Made by a program: the position numbers and the translations under genes. A DNA stretch of 57,376 nucleotides from a virus (Duplodnaviria > Caudoviricetes): positions 1 to 57,376 of IMG/VR virus record IMGVR_UViG_3300034407_002847. One strand, given 5' to 3'. Position 1 is the stretch's first letter. Each line of letters starts with the position of its first letter. Under the pieces are notes generated by a model. It was not told where the DNA came from. It saw only the letters and a program-made list of their open reading frames with translations, and did not search any database. Positions 32,396-39,953 of this stretch are shown one piece after another.

Positions 32396-32551
32396 TTTCA
32401 TAATTGCCATTTGCGGGATCGGATTTCCATTATTGGGAATCTACCCGCTTTGCCGGAAATAGCCTTGACAAGGGAAGGGCAAGACACGGAGTGTCTTACC
32501 CGACCCTGTCGGGTAATGTTGTAGCCAGTCAGCCAGCCAGAAAGTGAGAAA

Positions 32552-32661: not shown

Positions 32662-32737
32662 TAAACCCTTGCCACATAACGACTTACGACGTGAAAACCG
32701 GCCCCGTGAACATAAACCCTTGTACGGCAACGACTTA
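32662..32737 (+). repeat. 76-bp bipartite element copy 1
   Basis: TAAACCCTT-gccacat-AACGACTTA, 26-nt GC-rich linker, TAAACCCTT-gtacggc-AACGACTTA. Confidence 0.9.
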
Positions 32738-32904
32738 CGGCAAAAACCAAATTTCTTAAAAATAGGGAATGTTTATTTTCTTGGTAATGACGGCGGCATT
32801 CTCATCAATGGGATCTTAAAAACTTGGCGGATTGTTGTATTGCAATCCGTTCTGAAATGACGATACTACTTACAGACACGAAACAAAACAAAGGGAGCAA
32901 CACA

Positions 32905-33144
32905 ATGTGGAAGATCATCAGACAACACCGGGTAGCATACGACGCAGTTTATAACGGGGCTGATCTTATGGATTACCCTGCGTTCTTTCAGGCTCTTTAC
33001 AACTACTTCGTTTTCGGTGGCGAAATGCCTTACGGGGTCGCCAAGGCACGATTCGGAGATCCTGCCGAATGGATCATGGATCGTTCAGAAGTATGGCACG
33101 GACCCTCATCATCATGGGACGCATGTGAATCATACGAGGGATAG
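32905..33144 (+). CDS. Hypothetical protein (GEMPYGVAKAR motif)
   Basis: ATG after GGGAGCAACA; LY.YF...GEMPYG.AKAR.GDP..WI motif seen in small phage proteins. Confidence 0.7.
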   Translation: MWKIIRQHRVAYDAVYNGADLMDYPAFFQALYNYFVFGGEMPYGVAKARFGDPAEWIMDRSEVWHGPSSSWDACESYEG

Positions 33145-33207
33145 AATTGGACGCTACTAGGGAGCCGGATTTTCCGGCTCCCGTCACTCTCAACAGGAAG
33201 CAACAAG

Positions 33208-33483
33208 ATGAAATTCACACCAGAAGCCGACATTCAACACGAAATCACTCAGACCGTTTTGGAATTTGAGAACAACGACGGCAAACTGTACAATGATGCA
33301 ATGAGAACACTCAGCACACACTACAAAGAAGCTTGGAACGCTTTAGATGCCGAAGCGTTAATCTTTATCCAATTCTACAAAAGCGAATTGCAGCACAAAA
33401 ATATTAAAGTAAAACTTGCGGCGGCGACTGAAATTGTAAATGGTGCCGTTGCTGAATTTGAACTTGGGAACTTTTGGGAGTAA
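33208..33483 (+). CDS. Hypothetical protein
   Basis: ATG after AGGAAGCAACA. Confidence 0.7.
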   Translation: MKFTPEADIQHEITQTVLEFENNDGKLYNDAMRTLSTHYKEAWNALDAEALIFIQFYKSELQHKNIKVKLAAATEIVNGAVAEFELGNFWE

Positions 33484-33487
33484 GAAA

Positions 33488-33685
33488 ATGCAAACGAGCG
33501 AACTGGTAACATTGAACGGATGGGAATTCGATCTCTCAGCCTACGAAAACCGGGATCATTTCACTCACACGGTCTGGCAAGAAACTTTCGGACATTATGA
33601 CCAAATTGACACCACGGTTTACGCTGTTGCCGTAGCGAATCGCGTGGAATCCGCCGCAAAAGTTTTATGGGATATCAACCAATGA
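33488..33685 (+). CDS. Hypothetical protein
   Basis: GGAG RBS. Confidence 0.6.
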   Translation: MQTSELVTLNGWEFDLSAYENRDHFTHTVWQETFGHYDQIDTTVYAVAVANRVESAAKVLWDINQ

Positions 33686-33783
33686 TTACGGTTTTCTCAA
33701 TTGTAGGAATCTTTCTGTTTGCTCTTGTGTTCTCTTGGGCAATGGCGGAAACCATCGCAATATTGACGGATATTTTTACCTAA
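33682..33783 (+). CDS. Small hydrophobic peptide; stop codon supplied by element 2
   Basis: MITVFSIVGIFLFALVFSWAMAETIAILTDIFT*, ATGA overlap with previous gene. Confidence 0.55.
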   Translation: MITVFSIVGIFLFALVFSWAMAETIAILTDIFT

Positions 33784-33856
33784 ACCCTTGGTGGCAAACG
33801 ACTTATGTCGCCAAGCCCCGCCGCGTCGTCGTAACCTGTTAAGTGCCAACGACTTA
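33781..33856 (+). repeat. 76-bp bipartite element copy 2
   Basis: TAAACCCTT-ggtggca-AACGACTTA, 26 nt, TAACCTGTT-aagtgcc-AACGACTTA. Confidence 0.9.
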
Positions 33857-33968
33857 CGGCAATAGCTTAAACTTGCCATAAACTTGGGGAATAACTATTG
33901 ACCACGGAATAGAATGCCGATAATATACGTATCGGGTTACAATTCACTTTCTTTAAAGGTTTGACACG

Positions 33969-34145
33969 ATGAACAGTTTTGATGAGATTCAATGCGAAGA
34001 AACCCCAGACCACCAGTGGAACAGCATACTGGAAGAAACCACTTACTTTCACGAATGGATGGAATTTCAGGATCGTAAAACACAAGACGACTGGGATTGC
34101 AAGCTTTCTGATCTAAACGCAGAACTTCAGACCGTTGCCGCCTAA
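33969..34145 (+). CDS. Hypothetical protein
   Basis: 58 aa (MNSFDEIQCEE...) between promoter and hairpin. Confidence 0.55.
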   Translation: MNSFDEIQCEETPDHQWNSILEETTYFHEWMEFQDRKTQDDWDCKLSDLNAELQTVAA

Positions 34146-34158
34146 CATCCCACCACCA

Positions 34159-34181
34159 GCCGCCCTACGGGGCGGCATTTT
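34159..34181 (+). terminator. Intrinsic terminator-like hairpin
   Basis: GCCGCCC-TACG-GGGCGGC-ATTTT. Confidence 0.55.
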
Positions 34182-34194
34182 CAGGGGTTTGAAA

Positions 34195-34368
34195 ATGTCC
34201 GAATTCAAAACATGGGATTCTTACACGGAAGTTGAGAAACTTCAATGTGTGGTCAGTGATACTTACAAGGACCACTTCAACGTGCGGCCACGTCACTACA
34301 CTCCAGAACAGTGGAGCAACAAAGAATTCTTAAAGAAAGAACTTGACTGGCTTTACGATAAAGGTTAA
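34195..34368 (+). CDS. Hypothetical protein
   Basis: SD.YKD....RPR motif of small phage proteins. Confidence 0.6.
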   Translation: MSEFKTWDSYTEVEKLQCVVSDTYKDHFNVRPRHYTPEQWSNKEFLKKELDWLYDKG

Positions 34369-34378
34369 ATAACGGCAG

Positions 34379-34407
34379 GTGTCCAATCGGACCTTGTCCG
34401 ATAATGT
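34379..34407 (+). repeat. 29-bp direct repeat copy 1 (promoter-like)
   Basis: GTGTCCAATCGGACCTTGTCCGATAATGT, identical at 35650-35678. Confidence 0.85.
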
Positions 34408-34457
34408 CTGCAGTCAGCGGGCCAGCAGTCACCGAGAATTTTATAAGGGAGAAAATA

Positions 34458-34637
34458 ATGGTTGAAGCGATAATACAGCTTTTAGTAATGCTAGCAATTT
34501 TGTATGGCTGTGTATTTCACAGTTCAGGGACTACTCTGGCTTATGTACTTTGTGCGGCTTGGATGTTGACAATTATGGGTTCATTGCGTATATTTACAAG
34601 TGCGATCAAAGACATTATTGGATATCACGAGGATTGA
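34458..34637 (+). CDS. Small two-TM membrane protein
   Basis: Two hydrophobic helices, GGGAG RBS. Confidence 0.6.
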   Translation: MVEAIIQLLVMLAILYGCVFHSSGTTLAYVLCAAWMLTIMGSLRIFTSAIKDIIGYHED

Positions 34638-34641
34638 TCAA

Positions 34642-34926
34642 ATGACATTTCAGGGTTCTGTTGACGTTCTGCAAGACTACAAAAACGGCAAGAAATTAGA
34701 CCATTTTGCTTGGCCAGGCGGATATCAGATGTTCTATTATGTTTACGCGGATAATGAGCATATGCACTGCTGTCCAGACTGCACGAACAAAAAAGACTTT
34801 TATGAAGAATTCGAAGATGTAAACCGCGTCGAAGCGTTTATTAACTTGGAGGATCAAAATCTCACTTGCGATGTGTGTGAACAAAATATCCCAGCATCTT
34901 ACGGCGAAAACCAGCCTATAAATTGA
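34642..34926 (+). CDS. Small Zn-binding phage protein
   Basis: AWPGGY.M.Y, C.DC, CD.C...I...YG. Confidence 0.7.
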   Translation: MTFQGSVDVLQDYKNGKKLDHFAWPGGYQMFYYVYADNEHMHCCPDCTNKKDFYEEFEDVNRVEAFINLEDQNLTCDVCEQNIPASYGENQPIN

Positions 34927-34932
34927 TATAAG

Positions 34933-35042
34933 ACCCGGCCCCCTTGCTGTCTCAGTGTCTGTTGGTCTATTCGAATGCAAAAAAGACCGGGTGGGAGTCA
35001 CACCCACCAAAATACAGATGTTGAAGGGTATAAAAGCCGGGT
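34933..35042 (+). ncRNA. Putative multi-branched structured RNA
   Basis: Nested stems ACCCGGC/GCCGGGT and TCAGTGTCTGT/ACAGATGTTGA enclosing GGTCT/AGACC and GGTGGG/CCCACC hairpins. Confidence 0.4.
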
Positions 35043-35051
35043 AGGATCTCG

Positions 35052-35112
35052 CAGTCCTTTGTGTTTACGTGTTGCGTTGCTTCCTCACGTAGCACAAGGG
35101 ACTGGTTTTTTT
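35052..35112 (+). terminator. Intrinsic terminator
   Basis: CAGTCCTTTGTG/CACAAGGGACTG stem and T-run. Confidence 0.65.
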
Positions 35113-35123
35113 ATGGAAAAATA

Positions 35124-35312
35124 ATGAAAACTAAAATATTGTGCAAACTAATGCGTCCAAGCACTGACAGTTATCTTAAAGTGGAAATTCCTCAAGAAAT
35201 TGGTCCCCACGAAGAAGACTGGAAGAATTGGATCTTGCAAGAATTCAATGCGACGTTTATCCTAATGGACTTTTACCTTAGTGACGCCAACGGCGACAGG
35301 GAGTTGAAATGA
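35124..35312 (+). CDS. Hypothetical protein
   Basis: 62 aa, ATGA-coupled to next gene. Confidence 0.55.
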   Translation: MKTKILCKLMRPSTDSYLKVEIPQEIGPHEEDWKNWILQEFNATFILMDFYLSDANGDRELK

Positions 35313-35515
35313 GCACTGAACTGATGGCAGCAACAAACGACAGCGGAACAATTACTATGACCGGACTGTACCGAGATGGACAACCACGTTACCAGATCAC
35401 AGTAATGAGCAAAACTGGACTTTGCCGACCAGATGCTGTTTATCTGGAAGTTGACGCCGAGACCATTGCAAACATGCAAAGATGTGTTAATAACTACGAA
35501 ACTCCGGAGGTGTAA
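35309..35515 (+). CDS. Hypothetical protein
   Basis: GGGAG RBS. Confidence 0.6.
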   Translation: MSTELMAATNDSGTITMTGLYRDGQPRYQITVMSKTGLCRPDAVYLEVDAETIANMQRCVNNYETPEV

Positions 35516-35536
35516 AAGGGTTGGCAATAATCGTCC

Positions 35537-35612
35537 TAAGTCTTAGCCCCGCAAGGGGTTAGGGCCAAGGGGCCGGTTTTTTTGACGTAAGTTGTTGGTG
35601 TATATAGACTTA
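35537..35612 (-). repeat. 76-bp bipartite element copy 3 (inverted)
   Basis: Reverse complement reads TAAGTCTAT-atacacc-AACAACTTA, linker cgtcaaaaaaaccggccccttggccc, TAACCCCTT-gcggggc-TAAGACTTA. Confidence 0.8.
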
Positions 35613-35649
35613 CGTCGATTTTTGTGTATAATAGTAGGTTGATGGACAA

Positions 35650-35678
35650 GTGTCCAATCGGACCTTGTCCGATAATGT
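35650..35678 (+). repeat. 29-bp direct repeat copy 2
   Basis: Identical to 34379-34407. Confidence 0.85.
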
Positions 35679-35741
35679 TTATAGCCAGTAGTCAGCAGTT
35701 GTTGACATGGTTTCATGTTTTTGTTATAATGGAGGTGTAGG

Positions 35742-35933
35742 ATGAGGAGTAGATTAGAAGGAAGTCAACAGAAGGCAGACATTTTTGTTGGTTCTGAACT
35801 AAGTATTGGAAAAGTTGTCAAGATTCGTCACGAGGGTGTCGATGTTAAGAATAATGGCAACGAGTTTTTTGTTTCTAGGACAGCTATAGAAAAGGTTTTT
35901 GCAGATGATCAAAACACACAAACGAACAGGTAG
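35742..35933 (+). CDS. Hypothetical protein
   Basis: GGAGG RBS; TTGACA..TATAAT upstream. Confidence 0.55.
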   Translation: MRSRLEGSQQKADIFVGSELSIGKVVKIRHEGVDVKNNGNEFFVSRTAIEKVFADDQNTQTNR

Positions 35934-36099
35934 CCAAGTAAGTTTCATGTATCCAGCACGGGGAAAGGGAAATATCCTGCGACGTGTCAAGGGTGTAGTT
36001 GAAGAAAAGGGTAACGGACCAAACGGACCATTCCTTAGAGTTCTTGAGTCTAATGGCGAATACAGAACTTTCAGCACTAAGAAAATTGTGGATATGTAA
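35905..36099 (+). CDS. Hypothetical SH3-like protein
   Basis: VSF.YP...R.V.G.V....YRTFS..KI. Confidence 0.6.
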   Translation: MIKTHKRTGSQVSFMYPARGKGNILRRVKGVVEEKGNGPNGPFLRVLESNGEYRTFSTKKIVDM

Positions 36100-36512
36100 T
36101 GAAACCGTTCATTCGTAATTGTTCAACCGACAGTAAAGTGTCGGAACTTATCGATCCAACAAAGCCGGTGGAGGTTTACAAAAATCTCCATCGGGGCTGT
36201 TGGTCGGTTCGACAAAGCGGCATTGTTAGATTTCACACCTATGCAATAGCATTAGAACAGTGCCAATTCAAAGTGAGCGAATCAGGACGGCAGAGAGTTC
36301 TGAGAGAAAAACGGAAAAACGTTCACGCCTTTATTAAGGGCATCTTTATAACAAAAGGTGATCTTGTGAAAGGTGACAAGGTGACATACAATCCGTACAA
36401 AATGTCTTCGTTTAGACATCTCGGAGGACCGTGTCATAACATGAACGCTGTGATATTAAATACAGTAGGTGTTTACGAACTTCTTCCTCACCCTTATCTT
36501 GTGGAGAATTGA
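36099..36512 (+). CDS. Conserved phage hypothetical protein
   Basis: VYKNLH.G.WSV, F.V.E.GRQRVLREKRKNVHAF, VTYNPY. Confidence 0.75.
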   Translation: MKPFIRNCSTDSKVSELIDPTKPVEVYKNLHRGCWSVRQSGIVRFHTYAIALEQCQFKVSESGRQRVLREKRKNVHAFIKGIFITKGDLVKGDKVTYNPYKMSSFRHLGGPCHNMNAVILNTVGVYELLPHPYLVEN

Positions 36513-36513
36513 G

Positions 36514-36648
36514 ATGAGAATCTTAATAATTGCTAGTCTACTATTATTGCCGGGCTGTAAAGTTGTAAGCTCATTTGCAGTAGATCATAGTTTTCACAAA
36601 GAAGCGACACAAGCTAGAGCCAAAATTCAGTTTGAACATTGTTTCTAA
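36514..36648 (+). CDS. Small lipoprotein; stop codon supplied by element 4
   Basis: MRILIIASLLLLPGC lipobox-like N-terminus; TAA at 36646-36648. Confidence 0.6.
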   Translation: MRILIIASLLLLPGCKVVSSFAVDHSFHKEATQARAKIQFEHCF

Positions 36649-36721
36649 ACCCTTATGCCGTCTCGACTTACGACGGCAGGGCGGGCCGCGTCGGCCTAAA
36701 CCCTTTGCTGGTAACGACTTA
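36646..36721 (+). repeat. 76-bp bipartite element copy 4
   Basis: TAAACCCTT-atgccgt-CTCGACTTA, 26 nt, TAAACCCTT-tgctggt-AACGACTTA. Confidence 0.9.
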
Positions 36722-36829
36722 GGTCGAATACCTCATTTTGTGCATAAATGGTCTTGAGTATTTCAGGGGATGCCCTACAATGGGAAGTTACAAGCGGAAA
36801 GTTGGAAAAAACTCAAAATAGGTGAGAAT

Positions 36830-37585
36830 ATGTTCTCGAAAGCCAACGTAAAAATCCAAGAACTCGCAAAACATCCTGACCTACAAACATTTTTAGAAAA
36901 TCGTCGCAAAATTTACTCTTTCGACTTGATTTCTGGACACTCCTGCCCATTTGCTGATAAATGCCTGTCAAAGGTTATTATTGTTGACGGGCGACGTAAA
37001 ATTGTAGATGGTCGCAATACAGAATACCGATGTTTCTCAGCGTCTCAAGAAGCATTGTTGACAAACGTTTATAACAAGCGATCAAACAATTTTGAAGCAT
37101 TGAGACAAAAGACCACCAATGAGATGGTCGCGATAATTTCCGACATGATGCCAAACAATCTCGGAATATGCAGGATTCATGTTGCCGGTGATTTCTTTAA
37201 TAGGAAATATTTTCGGGCATGGCTACAAGTTGCCGAATCGAATCCTGACCGCCTGTTTTATGCCTACACCAAAAGTCTACCGTACTGGCTGGATAACCTG
37301 GGAAACATCCCAGACAATATGATTCTAACGGCTTCTTACGGTGGGCGGTGTGACCGGCTTATCCATCAGCTCAACCTACGATCTGCCACTGTAGTGTTAT
37401 CATATGAAAGGGCGGAAGAACTAGGTTTAGAAGTTGACCATGACGATTCCCATGCTGCAAATCCATTGACTAAAGACCAGGATTTTGCTCTAATGATTCA
37501 CGGACCACAACCGGCAGGCAGCGAAGCATCGGCAGCGACTTCTGAACTCAAGAAACAAGGAAGGAAGTTTTCTTACTCTAGATAG
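36830..37585 (+). CDS. GP88-like (radical-SAM-related) phage protein
   Basis: F.L..G.SCP.A..C, C..A..E, RIH..GDFF, FYAYTKS motifs. Confidence 0.75.
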   Translation: MFSKANVKIQELAKHPDLQTFLENRRKIYSFDLISGHSCPFADKCLSKVIIVDGRRKIVDGRNTEYRCFSASQEALLTNVYNKRSNNFEALRQKTTNEMVAIISDMMPNNLGICRIHVAGDFFNRKYFRAWLQVAESNPDRLFYAYTKSLPYWLDNLGNIPDNMILTASYGGRCDRLIHQLNLRSATVVLSYERAEELGLEVDHDDSHAANPLTKDQDFALMIHGPQPAGSEASAATSELKKQGRKFSYSR

Positions 37586-37670
37586 AAAGGCATCGGATGG
37601 CCGCTTTATTTTGCTTGACAGTCTATGTCGTGTTGACACACTGGCTGGAATAGCTTAGGGAAGAAAACGG

Positions 37671-37699
37671 GGCGGGAGTGTAAAAGCTCCCGCCTTTTT
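37671..37699 (+). terminator. Intrinsic terminator
   Basis: GGCGGGAG/CTCCCGCC stem and TTTTT. Confidence 0.7.
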
Positions 37700-37722
37700 C
37701 AAAATTTAACCGGAGAACTTAG

Positions 37723-37944
37723 ATGATTGCAAGAACTGCTGAAGAATTGGTTGAGAATTATCCGAGACTGCATGTATCTAGTGCGACTGAGATTATGCGA
37801 GAGCATAGTTTGGAACCATATGTGATCTGGGGCAAGGAAACAGGCGAATTGTTGGTTGATATGATTAGTCAAGAAGTTATCTGTCGTGTGGGCGATAATG
37901 GTTGTATTGATACCAAAACTTTGACAGACTGGATCGGATACTAA
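37723..37944 (+). CDS. Hypothetical protein
   Basis: GGAG RBS. Confidence 0.6.
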   Translation: MIARTAEELVENYPRLHVSSATEIMREHSLEPYVIWGKETGELLVDMISQEVICRVGDNGCIDTKTLTDWIGY

Positions 37945-38148
37945 ATGACCGCTTTAATAGACATAACCGGGCAAACGTTTGGCAAGTGGAAAGTCATTAA
38001 AAGATCCGACCAACCCAACGTATACACTCTATGGCAATGTCAATGCAAATGTGGGAAAGTTAAAAATGTCGCAAGTCAACATCTTAGATATGGCAACTCT
38101 AAACAATGTTTAAGTTGTGCAAACGTGACACGAAAAAAATCGACGTAA
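37945..38148 (+). CDS. N-terminal Zn-ribbon module of HNH/AP2 homing endonuclease type, ending at element 5
   Basis: DITGQTFGKW.V, W.C.C.CG, L..G.SK.C..C; no nuclease domain; stop is the first TAA of element 5. Confidence 0.65.
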   Translation: MTALIDITGQTFGKWKVIKRSDQPNVYTLWQCQCKCGKVKNVASQHLRYGNSKQCLSCANVTRKKST

Positions 38149-38221
38149 ACCCCTTGAGGGTAACGGGTTATGACGACCCGGCCCGCCGCGTGACCCTAAG
38201 TCCTTTGATGCCAACGACTTA
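38146..38221 (+). repeat. 76-bp bipartite element copy 5
   Basis: TAAACCCCT-tgagggt-AACGGGTTA, 26 nt, TAAGTCCTT-tgatgcc-AACGACTTA. Confidence 0.9.
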
Positions 38222-38358
38222 CAACTATTTTTGTAAATCCGGCCAAATTGTTATTTTGAAGCAATTATTAGTTACAATCTACGCCGATATAAACTACAAT
38301 GGGATTTCGCCGGGAACATGTGTTTCCAGCACTTAAAACCTTTTGGAGAATTTGAGCT

Positions 38359-39261
38359 ATGCACACTACAGCAAACGAAGCCGTTGAGACCGTCAAAGCA
38401 AAATTTGATTTCAGCGTTGACAAGTTTCCACTGTTCGGACCTGATCATATGCCGACCGACCAATACGGTTTGTTTCATTCAAAGGATGGATATTTGAAGG
38501 GTGTAAAATCCGTTTCCCCGCGTTATGTGCCGCATACTACTGAGCAGGTAGTCGCACTGACTGAAGCGGCTGCAGAAGTGTTCGACGGTCAAATTTCTGT
38601 TAAATGTCATTTCAACAATGGACACTATGTCCAAATGAAACCGACTGACGATGACCGTAGAAACATGTTCAGCGTTACCAATGGCGACAACGTGTTTCCT
38701 CGTTTTATGGTTCGCGGTGGTTTCGACGGTACTGGTTTTAAGGCTTCCATCGGATACTATCGGGACTTATGCGACAATCTGTCAATGATGAGATCCGTTA
38801 GTTCATTCTCACAGTCGATTCGTCACACTTCCGGATTGTTACCCGCAATGGACGAACTGATTGGAACTTTCTCACAGTTGAAAGAATCGTGGTTCACTCT
38901 GACCGATATGATCGCTCAGATGCAACAGCGAACAGTCGATATGGAAGAGTTCTTAGAAAAAATCTACGACGTACCTAAAGACGACGCGGGTCGTCGTGAG
39001 ATGACGATGCACAAGAACAGGAGTACATTAATCATGAATAGGCTGTGGGAAGAACTCCGGAAGACCGGGCAAATGAAGGCAAACAGCGACAATACTTCTA
39101 GTGTTCCGGCGTGGTTCGCTTACAATGCTGTGCAGGGTTTTGAGCAGCACGACGCTATTCGTCGCAACATGCCCGATACCAACCGGAAATTTGAACGGAT
39201 TATACGTTCCCAAAAATGCGGTTTTGTTTTGGACGCGGAAAGACTAGCCCTCACGGCATAG
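38359..39261 (+). CDS. DUF932-like phage/plasmid protein
   Basis: VS.RY.P, G.DG, R..C.N, IRHT, W.AYNAV..FE.H motifs. Confidence 0.7.
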   Translation: MHTTANEAVETVKAKFDFSVDKFPLFGPDHMPTDQYGLFHSKDGYLKGVKSVSPRYVPHTTEQVVALTEAAAEVFDGQISVKCHFNNGHYVQMKPTDDDRRNMFSVTNGDNVFPRFMVRGGFDGTGFKASIGYYRDLCDNLSMMRSVSSFSQSIRHTSGLLPAMDELIGTFSQLKESWFTLTDMIAQMQQRTVDMEEFLEKIYDVPKDDAGRREMTMHKNRSTLIMNRLWEELRKTGQMKANSDNTSSVPAWFAYNAVQGFEQHDAIRRNMPDTNRKFERIIRSQKCGFVLDAERLALTA

Positions 39262-39278
39262 GCTGGGATGCCTAAGTC

Positions 39279-39313
39279 AAGACCCGTTCGGAGAAATCCG
39301 GGCGGGTTTTTTT
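39279..39313 (+). terminator. Intrinsic terminator
   Basis: ACCCGTTCGGA-GAAA-TCCGGGCGGGT followed by T-run. Confidence 0.8.
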
Positions 39314-39320
39314 ATTGCCG

Positions 39321-39396
39321 TAAACCCTTACCACCAAACGAGTTAAATCGGCCCGGCCCGCCGCGTCGTCGTAAACCCTGTTATACCAACGACTTA
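39321..39396 (+). repeat. 76-bp bipartite element copy 6
   Basis: TAAACCCTT-accacca-AACGAGTTA, 26 nt, TAAACCCTG-ttatacc-AACGACTTA. Confidence 0.9.
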
Positions 39397-39583
39397 GGGC
39401 AATTGTTCTAAAAATTCTTGACATGCGTTGATTGGCCTTGTCGGTTTTAATGGGATAGCGTAGAATGGATAGCTGGTGTGTATATGGTGCAAGGAGGAAC
39501 CACTACCCGGTTATTCATTCATAGTTATTCACTCGGTGAACTATTAGTTCATTGTGAATGTTGGATGGCCGGGTATTTTTTTT

Positions 39584-39668
39584 GGCCGGGTGGTGGAATA
39601 GGCAGACACTCAGGACTTAAAATCCTGTGCCCGTAATGGGCGTGCGGGTTCAAGTCCCGTCCCGGCTA
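39584..39668 (+). tRNA. tRNA-Leu(TAA)
   Basis: Cloverleaf, CAGGA-CTTAAAA-TCCTG anticodon arm, long variable arm, TTCAAGT T-loop. Confidence 0.95.
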
Positions 39669-39674
39669 ACAACA

Positions 39675-39747
39675 GGGTCTATAGCTCAACGGTTAGAGCA
39701 GCGAACTCATAATTCGTTGGCTGTAGGTTCGAATCCTACTAGACCCA
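39675..39747 (+). tRNA. tRNA-CAT, probably Ile2 (Met not excluded)
   Basis: GGGTCTA/TAGACCC acceptor, GCGAA-CTCATAA-TTCGT anticodon arm; lacks initiator GGG/CCC stem. Confidence 0.9.
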
Positions 39748-39879
39748 ATCCTTCCTCCCGGTTACCCGCAAGCTCCCCGTTTGCATCATGGGTGACCGGG
39801 TTTTTTTGTGCCCTGATTTGTCTTACCGCATCCCTGCGGATACGCGACTTGTTTAACTGCCAGCGGAAAATGGGCAAAA

Positions 39880-39953
39880 TAGGGATGGTGGGACTTGAAC
39901 CCACGACCACCGCTTTATAAGAACGACACTCTTACCAACTGAGTTACATCCCT
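39880..39953 (-). tRNA. tRNA-Ile(TAT)
   Basis: AGGGATG/CATCCCT acceptor, TCGTT-CTTATAA-AGCGG anticodon arm, GTGGG-TTCAAGT-CCCAC T-arm. Confidence 0.88.

What the first reader, a model, noticed from the sequence alone, without database searches (positions are those of the whole stretch)
32662..39396. Six 76-bp bipartite sites partition the early region into cassette-like modules
Seen: copies at 32662, 33781, 35537 (inverted), 36646, 38146 and 39321. Each has two 25-bp imperfect inverted repeats (TAAACCCTT-N7-AACGACTTA consensus) starting exactly 51 bp apart, with a 26-bp GC-rich linker (often GCCCGCCGCGT). All 12 central 7-mers differ while lengths are invariant. Each site is followed by a promoter-like sequence and a few small genes. 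Established: inverted arms around a 6-8 bp spacer is tyrosine-recombinase core-site geometry; integron attC sites and pdif modules delimit mobile cassettes. Inference: a phage cassette-shuffling array, or paired in-phase protein-binding sites (51 bp is about 5 helical turns). No recombinase gene is in the window, and non-matching spacers argue against simple homology-dependent exchange.
Basis: partly seen in the sequence, partly recalled or inferred. Interest (0 to 1): 0.85.

Follow-up and report, generated by a model that had tools for sequence, protein, structure and literature searches.

The report
Paired docking sites before phage promoters
Six rigid pairs of near-mirror-symmetric DNA sites sit just upstream of the early promoters of an uncultured marine phage; they look like landing pads for a still unknown DNA-binding protein, not like cut-and-paste recombination sites, and the same module recurs in many related phages and in some planctomycete chromosomes.

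Summary
There are six 76-bp elements, each with two 25-bp units exactly 51 bp apart, and 12 different central 7-mers. The recombination reading is not supported. No tyrosine or serine recombinase or IS200-like transposase was found in the window or in four related records, one of them a complete 230-kb genome. No two spacers match. DNA contigs from two independent studies are colinear across all six elements. Units are near-palindromes of TAARYCCTT-N7-AAsGRYTTA. Pairs (mode 53 bp, also 42) lie upstream of sigma70-type promoters at about 30, 41, 52 and 62 bp, in 78 of 103 cases. No hairpin covariation exists on either strand. Instead, the two half-sites of a unit are preferentially different. 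The motif occurs in at least 119 IMG/VR stretches of what looks like one phage lineage (TerL 55-73% identical in 5 of 5 tested). It also occurs beside promoters and iterons in Planctomycetota chromosomes and mobile elements. The binder is unknown. This scan found the same family at least seven times on other DNA. I found no description in print.

The parts
32662..32737 (+). Element 1: units 32662-32686 and 32713-32737, 26-bp linker (GC 0.62)
Evidence: Only a weak promoter candidate follows (TTGGTA-N17-ATCAAT, about +43, read by eye).
33781..33856 (+). Element 2: units 33781-33805 and 33832-33856. Its first TAA is the stop codon of ORF 33667..33783.
33898..33926 (+). Predicted sigma70-type promoter TTGACC-N17-TAATAT, 41 bp after element 2
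   Evidence: consensus match only
35537..35612 (-). Element 3, inverted: units 35537-35561 and 35588-35612
   Evidence: (I1)
35702..35730 (+). Predicted promoter TTGACA-N17-TATAAT (12 of 12, TG-extended), 89 bp after the inverted element
36646..36721 (+). Element 4: units 36646-36670 and 36697-36721. Its first TAA is the stop codon of ORF 36469..36648.
36754..36781 (+). Predicted promoter TTGAGT-N16-TACAAT, 32 bp after element 4, ahead of the GP88-family gene (PF17338)
38146..38221 (+). Element 5: units 38146-38170 and 38197-38221. Its first TAA is the stop codon of ORF 37945..38148.
38272..38300 (+). Predicted promoter TTACAA-N17-TACAAT, 50 bp after element 5, ahead of the DUF932 gene 38359..39261
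39279..39320 (+). Intrinsic-terminator-like hairpin plus T-run, directly before element 6
39321..39396 (+). Element 6: units 39321-39345 and 39372-39396
39438..39466 (+). Predicted promoter TTGTCG-N17-TAGAAT, 41 bp after element 6, ahead of tRNA-Leu (39583-39670) and tRNA-Met (39675-39747)

Best explanation
Each 76-bp element is a double-stranded-DNA regulatory module. It holds two sequence-specific docking sites for a DNA-binding protein, about five helical turns apart and separated by a rigid GC-rich spacer. The module sits a whole number of helical turns upstream of a host-type (sigma70) early promoter. Each site is a pseudo-palindrome built from two different half-site types (TAAACCCTT-like and TAAGTC[C/G]TT-like), and the TAAGTCGTT type faces the promoter. 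This points to an asymmetric, perhaps heterodimeric, binder. The binder is most likely host-encoded, because the same palindrome lies beside sigma70-type promoters and iteron clusters in Planctomycetota chromosomes and mobile elements that lack this phage. Bound upstream at about -80 to -110 and -135 to -160, the protein would tune initiation, by activation through bending or contact with RNA polymerase, or by insulating one transcription unit from the next. Shown: the anatomy, its conservation, the lack of hairpin covariation, the phased distances and the chromosomal occurrences. Inferred: that a protein binds, which protein it is, and the sign of the effect. Because the modules are repeated at unit borders, they also serve as passive homology patches where related phages differ in gene content.
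For: Unit spacing is quantised: 53 (62), 52 (15), 51 (9) and 42 (8) of 103 promoter-oriented pairs.

A promoter of at least 9 bits follows 86 of 170 elements, against 20 of 170 after shuffling.

The distance from unit 2 to the -35 hexamer falls in 14 of 71 possible positions (about 30.5, 41, 51.5 and 62) for 78 of 103 pairs from 42 loci. The periodicity peaks at 10.75-11.25 bp with resultant 0.70.

No RNA or single-strand structure is supported. RNAalifold gives 0 pairs on either strand. With the two-hairpin structure named, 71.7% of cells pair against 72.7 +/- 0.5% in shuffles, and the covariation score is 0.075 against 0.085. The linker folds no better than shuffled sequence.

Watson-Crick symmetry at positions 4/22, 5/21 and 7/19 is depleted: 17-27% observed against 43-52% expected, z -8 to -11, in 360 units. 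The promoter-proximal half-site is TAAGTCGTT in 52 of 103.

Units are intergenic: 599 of 682 lie outside homolog-supported ORFs, which cover 42% of the DNA.

Sites cluster in one region of 11-23 kb per phage record.

Host side: 80, 38 and 42 sites with 2 mismatches or fewer in MAGs G006, G007 and G009, with controls 0. Ten G006 loci show two palindromes about 90 bp apart followed by TTGACA-N17-TATAAT at +32/33. No relative of the window's TerL was found in 0 of 5 of these MAGs. None of the 6 phage records searched (G000-G005) encodes an HU/IHF-family protein.
Against: No binding protein is identified and nothing here was measured; the promoters are consensus matches only.

In this window the promoters are weaker than in relatives. 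One element has no good promoter, and one is inverted and 89 bp from its promoter.

The three or four distance classes could partly reflect descent from a few ancestral modules rather than selection on phase.

In a random sample of 120 other Planctomycetota genomes, only 22 carry 1-3 sites at 1 mismatch or fewer (the control pattern hits 7). The motif is therefore not a phylum-wide high-copy signal, and a host factor is not proven. The site-rich MAGs owe their counts to multi-copy modules.

All phage records tested belong to one lineage, so a phage-encoded binder remains possible.

An RNA-library contig covers element 4 from its first base. Read-through or a role in RNA is therefore not excluded, although DNA carry-over cannot be ruled out either.
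Confidence: 0.6

Rival explanations
1. The sites are operators of a phage-encoded regulator, for example an early shut-off repressor or an early activator made or injected by this phage lineage. The chromosomal copies would belong to elements that listen to that phage protein.
For: All 5 motif-bearing phage records tested share a TerL 55-73% identical to the window's, so the motif could be a lineage trait. Sites are confined to the early region. Chromosomal copies sit in multi-copy, apparently non-coding promoter modules and in mobile-element ori-like regions. Only 22 of 120 sampled Planctomycetota genomes have any strong site.
Against: No candidate DNA-binding protein is shared. None of the 9 proteins scanned, eight of them small early ORFs of this window, has a Pfam DNA-binding domain, and PF00216 is absent. 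The site-rich MAGs lack a relative of this phage's TerL. The sites lie at about -90 and -140 rather than over the core promoter, where simple repressors act.
Confidence: 0.2
2. The palindromes act as RNA or single-stranded DNA hairpins, serving as terminators or attenuators between early units, like the stem-loops of PeSLs.
For: Elements start at or on the upstream stop codon: 3 of 6 here, and 15 of 100 in the family against 6 and 5 in the other frames. Single 33-nt units fold at about -5 to -8 kcal/mol. Only one of the six junctions has a classical terminator. PeSLs combine a sigma70 promoter with a stem-loop (PMC2839356, abstract and section 13 read).
Against: RNAalifold finds no consensus pair on either strand. 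Pairing and covariation are at or below shuffled values. Complementarity at three arm positions is actively depleted. No U-run follows the units. The arm sequence is conserved, which a structure-only signal does not require.
Confidence: 0.1
3. They are core sites for a host site-specific recombinase or single-strand transposase (Xer-like, integron-like, or REP/RAYT-like) that moves promoter-led cassettes.
For: The 9-7-9 geometry with two different arms recalls XerC/XerD sites. Adjacency of homologous genes is kept less often across elements (0.13 against 0.43). Contigs of relatives share only the units (tables 5 and 5c). In MAG G006, 4 of 17 site loci lie within 2 kb of one of 41 IS200-like Y1_Tnp genes. 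CGTC-tagged REP families are described (PMC3733652, passages read).
Against: No PF00589, PF00239 or PF01797 occurs in 5 phage records, including a complete genome. All 12 spacers differ, so spacer-homology-dependent exchange between them cannot work. Units come as direct pairs phased with promoters, which recombination does not require. The adjacency effect nearly vanishes when gap size is matched: 0.20 against 0.27 and 0.10 against 0.15. The main DNA contigs are colinear through all six elements. The sites number in the dozens per chromosome, unlike dif.
Confidence: 0.06

Closest known systems
PeSLs (promoter-early stem-loops) of T4-type phages RB49 and phi1 (Arbiol et al. 2010, PMC2839356; abstract and section 13 read)
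   Same: Both are small repeated regulatory cassettes in the plastic early region. Both start at the upstream stop codon and contain a strong sigma70-like promoter. Both lie upstream of small ORFans and mark the places where related phages differ in gene content.
   Different: PeSL stem-loops vary in sequence and in position relative to the promoter, and were shown to terminate transcription. Here there are two palindromes of conserved sequence at fixed spacing, always upstream and in helical register with the promoter. They show no structural covariation and have deliberately unlike half-sites. Mini-circles were not seen, but only contigs could be examined.
Upstream activator or architectural sites at bacterial and phage promoters: Fis sites at rrn P1, tandem CRP sites, and IHF sites upstream of lambda pL. 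These are recalled; for lambda pL only the reference to Giladi et al. 1992 was seen, in the reference list of PMC1874639.
   Same: Sequence-specific sites lie upstream of -60, in tandem, on the same helical face as a sigma70 promoter. The use of a host factor by a phage early promoter is also shared.
   Different: The motif matches no consensus known to me. The full E. coli IHF consensus WATCAANNNNTTR (recalled) is met in only 16 of 412 arm readings, and among top-strand readings in 0 of 172 units of the 51-53 bp class to which this window belongs. The binder is unknown. The rigid 76-82-bp double module with a GC-rich linker has, as far as I found, no described counterpart.
Integron attC sites and pdif modules
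   Same: Imperfect inverted repeats lie between small gene units.
   Different: There is no integrase or Xer-type enzyme in the phage, no RYYYAAC/GTTRRRY cores, no 11-6-11 dif-like arms and no alternation of site orientation. The sites are paired and phased with promoters.
REP/BIME elements, including CGTC-tagged REPs (Di Nocera et al. 2013, PMC3733652; passages read, figures not held)
   Same: Both are short intergenic palindromes with A/T pairs at the stem base and a CG-rich tag, often occurring as dimers.
   Different: REP dimers are mostly head-to-head and REPs are species-specific. Here the pairs are head-to-tail, and the motif is shared between a phage lineage and two classes of Planctomycetota. 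It is tied to promoters, and no RAYT is present in the phages.

Membership tests
Tyrosine-recombinase core sites (Xer/dif, pdif, lox/FRT type) | A cognate tyrosine recombinase is encoded or available | tested here: not met
   PF00589 gave 0 of 5 phage records, including the complete G001, while the control rang in 14 of 14 genomes. Host Xer could not be tested.
Tyrosine-recombinase core sites (Xer/dif, pdif, lox/FRT type) | Partner sites share an identical central (overlap) region | tested here: not met
   All 12 of 12 central 7-mers are different, also after reverse-complement collapse.
Tyrosine-recombinase core sites (Xer/dif, pdif, lox/FRT type) | Recombinant junctions (deletions, circles, inversions) occur at the sites | tested here: inconclusive
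   The main contigs of X5 and X12 are colinear across all six elements. The few joints have short sides (22-52 nt) or come from abundant relatives that share only the units. Contigs cannot show rare events.
Integron attC | An IntI integrase, attI and Pc are nearby, and the site has conserved RYYYAAC...GTTRRRY cores (features recalled) | tested here: not met
   No PF00589. Unit ends are TAA...TTA, not the attC cores.
PeSL regulatory cassettes | A sigma70-like early promoter lies inside the repeated cassette | tested here: met
   In the window, 4 of 6 elements have a match at +32 to +50 and 1 at +89. In the family, 86 of 170 against 20 of 170 shuffled. These are predictions only.
PeSL regulatory cassettes | A stem-loop acts as terminator or attenuator; its sequence is free and its position relative to the promoter varies | tested here: not met
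   No consensus structure or covariation was found. The sequence is conserved and the position is fixed upstream. Terminator activity could not be measured.
PeSL regulatory cassettes | Gene-content differences between relatives map to the cassettes | tested here: inconclusive
   Adjacency is kept in 0.13 against 0.43 of cases, but in 0.20 against 0.27 and 0.10 against 0.15 when gap size is matched.
Upstream activator or architectural protein sites | A sequence-conserved dsDNA site lies upstream of the core promoter, with face-of-helix spacing | tested here: met
   78 of 103 distances fall in classes about 10.5-11 bp apart. Unit spacing is 53 or 42 bp.
Upstream activator or architectural protein sites | Demonstrated binding by a named protein and an effect on transcription | not testable with these tools
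   This needs EMSA or footprinting and reporter assays.
IHF sites | Match to WATCAANNNNTTR (E. coli consensus, recalled) | tested here: not met
   The full match occurs in 16 of 412 arm readings, and among top-strand readings in 0 of 172 units of the 51-53 bp class. The partial CAANNNNTTR is met in 57 of 103 proximal arms.
REP/RAYT | An associated Y1 (RAYT) transposase, with hairpin-forming units | tested here: not met
   PF01797 gave 0 of 5 phage records. There is no hairpin covariation. On the host side, 4 of 17 G006 site loci lie within 2 kb of a Y1_Tnp gene, which is unexplained.

The most novel reading that the evidence does not exclude
The double palindrome is a portable enhancer/insulator module. 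It docks an asymmetric, possibly heterodimeric, DNA-bending protein of Planctomycetota in helical register with sigma70 promoters. The same module is shared between a large lineage of big uncultured phages (marine and other habitats), multi-copy non-coding promoter modules in planctomycete chromosomes, and origins of mobile elements. That would make it an undescribed regulatory system of a phylum whose transcription control is almost unknown.
Probability: 0.35. Interest if true: 0.75.

Novelty: new variant of a known kind. Interest (0 to 1): 0.62.

Why it matters
Almost nothing is known about how promoters are controlled in Planctomycetota or in their phages, none of which has a cultured relative in the phage collection searched. 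A 25-bp site of high information content, with fixed geometry and hundreds of natural variants, is a ready-made bait for finding the protein that binds it, by DNA-affinity capture or DAP-seq. It also gives a host-linkage marker for a widespread group of large uncultured phages; this one is held almost whole (at least 95% of sampled words) by 17 seawater or marine runs, 20 listed runs in 10 studies holding at least part of it. It adds a second, mechanistically different example beside PeSLs of repeated regulatory cassettes that organise the plastic early regions of phage genomes. Finally, it corrects a tempting misreading: recombinase-like geometry does not make a recombination site.

Tried and rejected
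Recombinase or transposase in the phage: PF00589, PF00239 and PF01797 gave nothing in G000-G004.

Phage-encoded HU/IHF (SPO1 TF1-like idea, recalled): PF00216 gave nothing in G000-G005.

RNA structure: rejected.

Sigma54 or ECF promoter readings of the unit: considered by eye and dropped, because the spacing does not fit and the site is palindromic. HspR/HAIR, CIRCE, IscR, GacA-box and LexA-box resemblances (all recalled) were also considered and dropped because the arm order or spacing differs. None of these was tested by a tool.

Known RNA families: nothing in host modules or G009 loci except two tRNAs at gathering threshold, and only sub-threshold noise at E up to 0.1. No tRNA in 11 host loci.

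Cultured relatives: TerL reaches at most 26.6% identity among the 15 records listed (all 120 matching records are under 60%), and the element gave no blastn match.

Literature: a search for the four 9-mers gave 730 papers, of which the 20 listed are unrelated primer or sequence hits. 'Planctomycetes + palindromic + motif + promoter + upstream' gave 29 papers, none on this motif judging from the 20 listed titles and abstracts. 'Planctomycetes, bacteriophage, early promoter, intergenic repeats' gave 1 unrelated paper. On that basis I say I found no description; subscription journals and supplements were not searchable.

Reads: only Logan contigs were available, so starts, ends, strand and rare junctions could not be read. 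The RNA runs X18 and X20 hold small shares with 90-99% likeness and may include DNA, so they give no claim of expression. Parts without cover mean nothing.

The first orientation of pairs, by site asymmetry, was circular for half-site statistics, so I replaced it with orientation by the downstream promoter. Of 217 pairs, 114 could not be oriented that way and were left out. The crude downstream-ORF test (103 against 66) was not used. Ten Pfam and one PHROGs look-ups of window proteins gave no DNA-binding candidate. Structure prediction, complex prediction, the protein-database searches and the atlas were not used, because no candidate binder emerged.

Full report
**What is there.** The window is a fragment (CheckV estimate 34%) of a large uncultured phage. 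It has a leftward structural arm (terminase, virion proteins) and a rightward early arm of small ORFs.

Between 32.6 and 39.4 kb lie six 76-bp elements, five direct and one inverted. The twelfth unit appears with a slightly degenerate pattern.

In all six elements the two units start exactly 51 bp apart. The 26-bp linker has GC 0.62-0.88 in a region of 43-47% GC. All twelve central 7-mers differ. Three elements use their first TAA as the stop codon of the upstream ORF.

I fetched relatives by scanning IMG/VR for the exact pattern.

In these loci the units again come in pairs. Same-strand neighbour distances peak at 53 (103 cases), 52 (24), 42 (19) and 41 (10). The window's 51 is a minority class.

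The family consensus is GaCG-TAARYCCTT-N7-AAsGRYTTA-CGnC, followed by a linker of about 81% GC and then the second unit. In five longer records the sites are confined to one stretch of 11-23 kb. One of these records is a complete 230-kb genome with terminal repeats.

All five records encode a large terminase 55-73% identical to the window's, so this appears to be one phage lineage. No cultured relative was found.

**Relation to promoters.** Downstream of unit 2 there is a canonical sigma70-type promoter, typically ccccTTGACA-aatgCCGATA...-TATAAT. 86 of 170 elements have a match of at least 9 bits within 120 bp, against 20 of 170 after shuffling.

I then oriented the pairs by the promoter alone, which was possible for 103 of 217 pairs from 42 loci. 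The distance from the end of unit 2 to the -35 hexamer falls at 29-32 (12 pairs), 40-42 (32), 50-53 (30) or 61-63 (4). That is 78 of 103 distances in 14 of 71 possible positions. The periodicity maximum lies at 10.75-11.25 bp with resultant 0.70.

The unit-to-unit spacings (53 or 42) also differ by about one helical turn. The unit centres therefore lie near -80 to -110 and -135 to -160.

In this window the predicted promoters sit at +32, +41, +41 and +50. A perfect one lies at +89 after the inverted element. Only a weak one follows element 1.

**DNA site or hairpin?** I aligned 62 promoter-oriented elements of the 53-bp class. RNAalifold finds no consensus pair on the sense strand or the antisense strand.

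With the two 13-bp hairpins named explicitly, 71.7% of cells pair against 72.7 +/- 0.5% in column shuffles. The covariation score is 0.075 against 0.085, and 474 of 500 shuffles score at least as high. The linker folds no better than shuffled sequence.

In 360 units anchored only on the invariant bases, Watson-Crick symmetry at positions 4/22, 5/21 and 7/19 is far below expectation (0.18, 0.26 and 0.27 against 0.43, 0.52 and 0.45; z -11, -10 and -8). A TAAACCCTT-type half-site is preferentially combined with a TAAGTC[C/G]TT-type one. The promoter-proximal half-site is TAAGTCGTT in 52 of 103 cases.

Conserved sequence, avoided symmetry and fixed polarity are what one expects of an asymmetric protein on duplex DNA, not of a hairpin.

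**Recombination?** No tyrosine recombinase, serine recombinase or IS200-like transposase family is detectable in the window or in four relatives, including the complete genome. The controls rang.

No two spacers match. In two DNA runs from independent studies, long contigs run colinear through all six elements. The joints reported have short sides or belong to more abundant relatives that share only the units or single genes. Contigs cannot reveal rare events.

Gene order between relatives is kept less often across an element (0.13) than elsewhere (0.43; p = 2e-12). With intergenic gap size matched, the difference shrinks to 0.20 against 0.27 and 0.10 against 0.15. Elements therefore mark transcription-unit borders, where phage genomes are plastic anyway.

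This is the PeSL picture of homologous exchange between repeated regulatory cassettes (PMC2839356, abstract and section 13 read). It is not a dedicated site-specific system.

By their record titles, 37 of them are from Planctomycetota. Several multi-site hits in other bins look like mis-binned phage contigs.

Three MAG chromosomes carry 80, 38 and 42 sites at 2 mismatches or fewer, with controls 0. In G006 these form a multi-copy module, seen at ten loci:

- two palindromes about 90 bp apart;
- TTGACA-N17-TATAAT at +32/33;
- about 700 nt with no ORF, no Rfam hit and copy-specific 10-11-nt repeats;
- a third palindrome at the end.

G007 has another family, with a promoter-like TTCGCA-N17-TATATA at +28. 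Elsewhere the palindrome is flanked by iterons, next to a DUF5906 primase-like gene or a family A polymerase. These look like origins of mobile elements.

None of the five MAGs has a relative of this phage's terminase, and the phages encode no HU/IHF protein. This favours a host factor used at promoters and origins.

Two results go against that. First, a random sample of 120 other Planctomycetota genomes shows only 22 with 1-3 strong sites, where the control pattern hits 7. Second, the full E. coli IHF consensus (recalled) is matched in only 16 of 412 arm readings, and among top-strand readings in none of the 172 units of the window's spacing class. The binder stays unknown and a phage-encoded one is not excluded.

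In G006, 4 of 17 site loci lie within 2 kb of one of 41 IS200-like genes. I cannot explain this.

**Verdict.** The element is best read as a tandem, helically phased protein-docking module upstream of host-type early promoters. It is a new variant of upstream regulatory sites and of PeSL-like cassettes.

Earlier follow-ups in this scan reached the same reading on at least seven other genomes. I had formed it before looking. What I add is the half-site anticorrelation, the promoter-independent polarity, the gap-matched synteny control, the read-level check and the negative IHF-consensus test. I found no published description.

Noticed in passing
window 32492-32515, 34376-34417, 35647-35688, 39819-39842: A second repeat family (D4/D5): TGTC-[7-bp stem, 3-4-nt loop, with compensatory stem changes between copies]-TAATGT. 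It looks like a promoter with a hairpin between the -35 and -10 hexamers, the commonest PeSL layout (PMC2839356, section 13).
   Followed up: partly
window 29081-29590 (-): A 169-aa protein with a Sigma70 region 2 domain (PF04542, E 6e-6) sits at the head of the leftward arm. Homologs occur in 23 of the 120 early-region loci compared. It is probably the phage's own sigma factor for middle or late genes.
   Followed up: partly
window 39583-39953 and 54790-54862: Four tRNA genes: Leu-TAA, Met/Ile2-CAT, Ile-TAT (minus strand) and Arg-TCT. The first two lie directly downstream of the promoter that follows element 6.
   Followed up: no
window 37712-37944: The 73-aa ORF 37723..37944 is covered about tenfold deeper than its surroundings in two DNA runs (221 and 109 against about 20 and 15). 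Loose ends lie at both of its borders. It is therefore shared with a much more abundant relative, where it sits directly behind a promoter.
   Followed up: partly
L145 4300-5950, L150 2300-3500, L175 1950-3050, L163 800-2250 (MAG G006): Multi-copy chromosomal modules: two palindromes, a strong sigma70-type promoter, about 700 nt without an ORF or Rfam match but with copy-specific 10-11-nt tandem repeats, then a terminal palindrome. Some copies lie beside IS200-like Y1_Tnp genes. Their nature is unknown.
   Followed up: partly
L254, L267, L248, L263 (MAG G009) and L188, L222: Palindromes are embedded in arrays of short direct repeats (TGGGTTCGTT, GGTGAACC and ATTTGCTCAT types). In two cases they lie next to replication genes (DUF5906, family A polymerase), which is origin-like.
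   Followed up: partly
promoters downstream of elements in L018, L028, L059, L062, L104 and others: The spacer between -35 and -10 carries a conserved (t)gcCGATA block. A related GATAAG/GTTAAG block sits at the same place in the chromosomal promoters of G006. It may be an extra promoter element of these hosts.
   Followed up: no
window 27106-28269 (-): A GDP-mannose 4,6-dehydratase gene (PF16363, E 2e-103) lies in the phage. Homologs occur in 21 of the compared loci.
   Followed up: no
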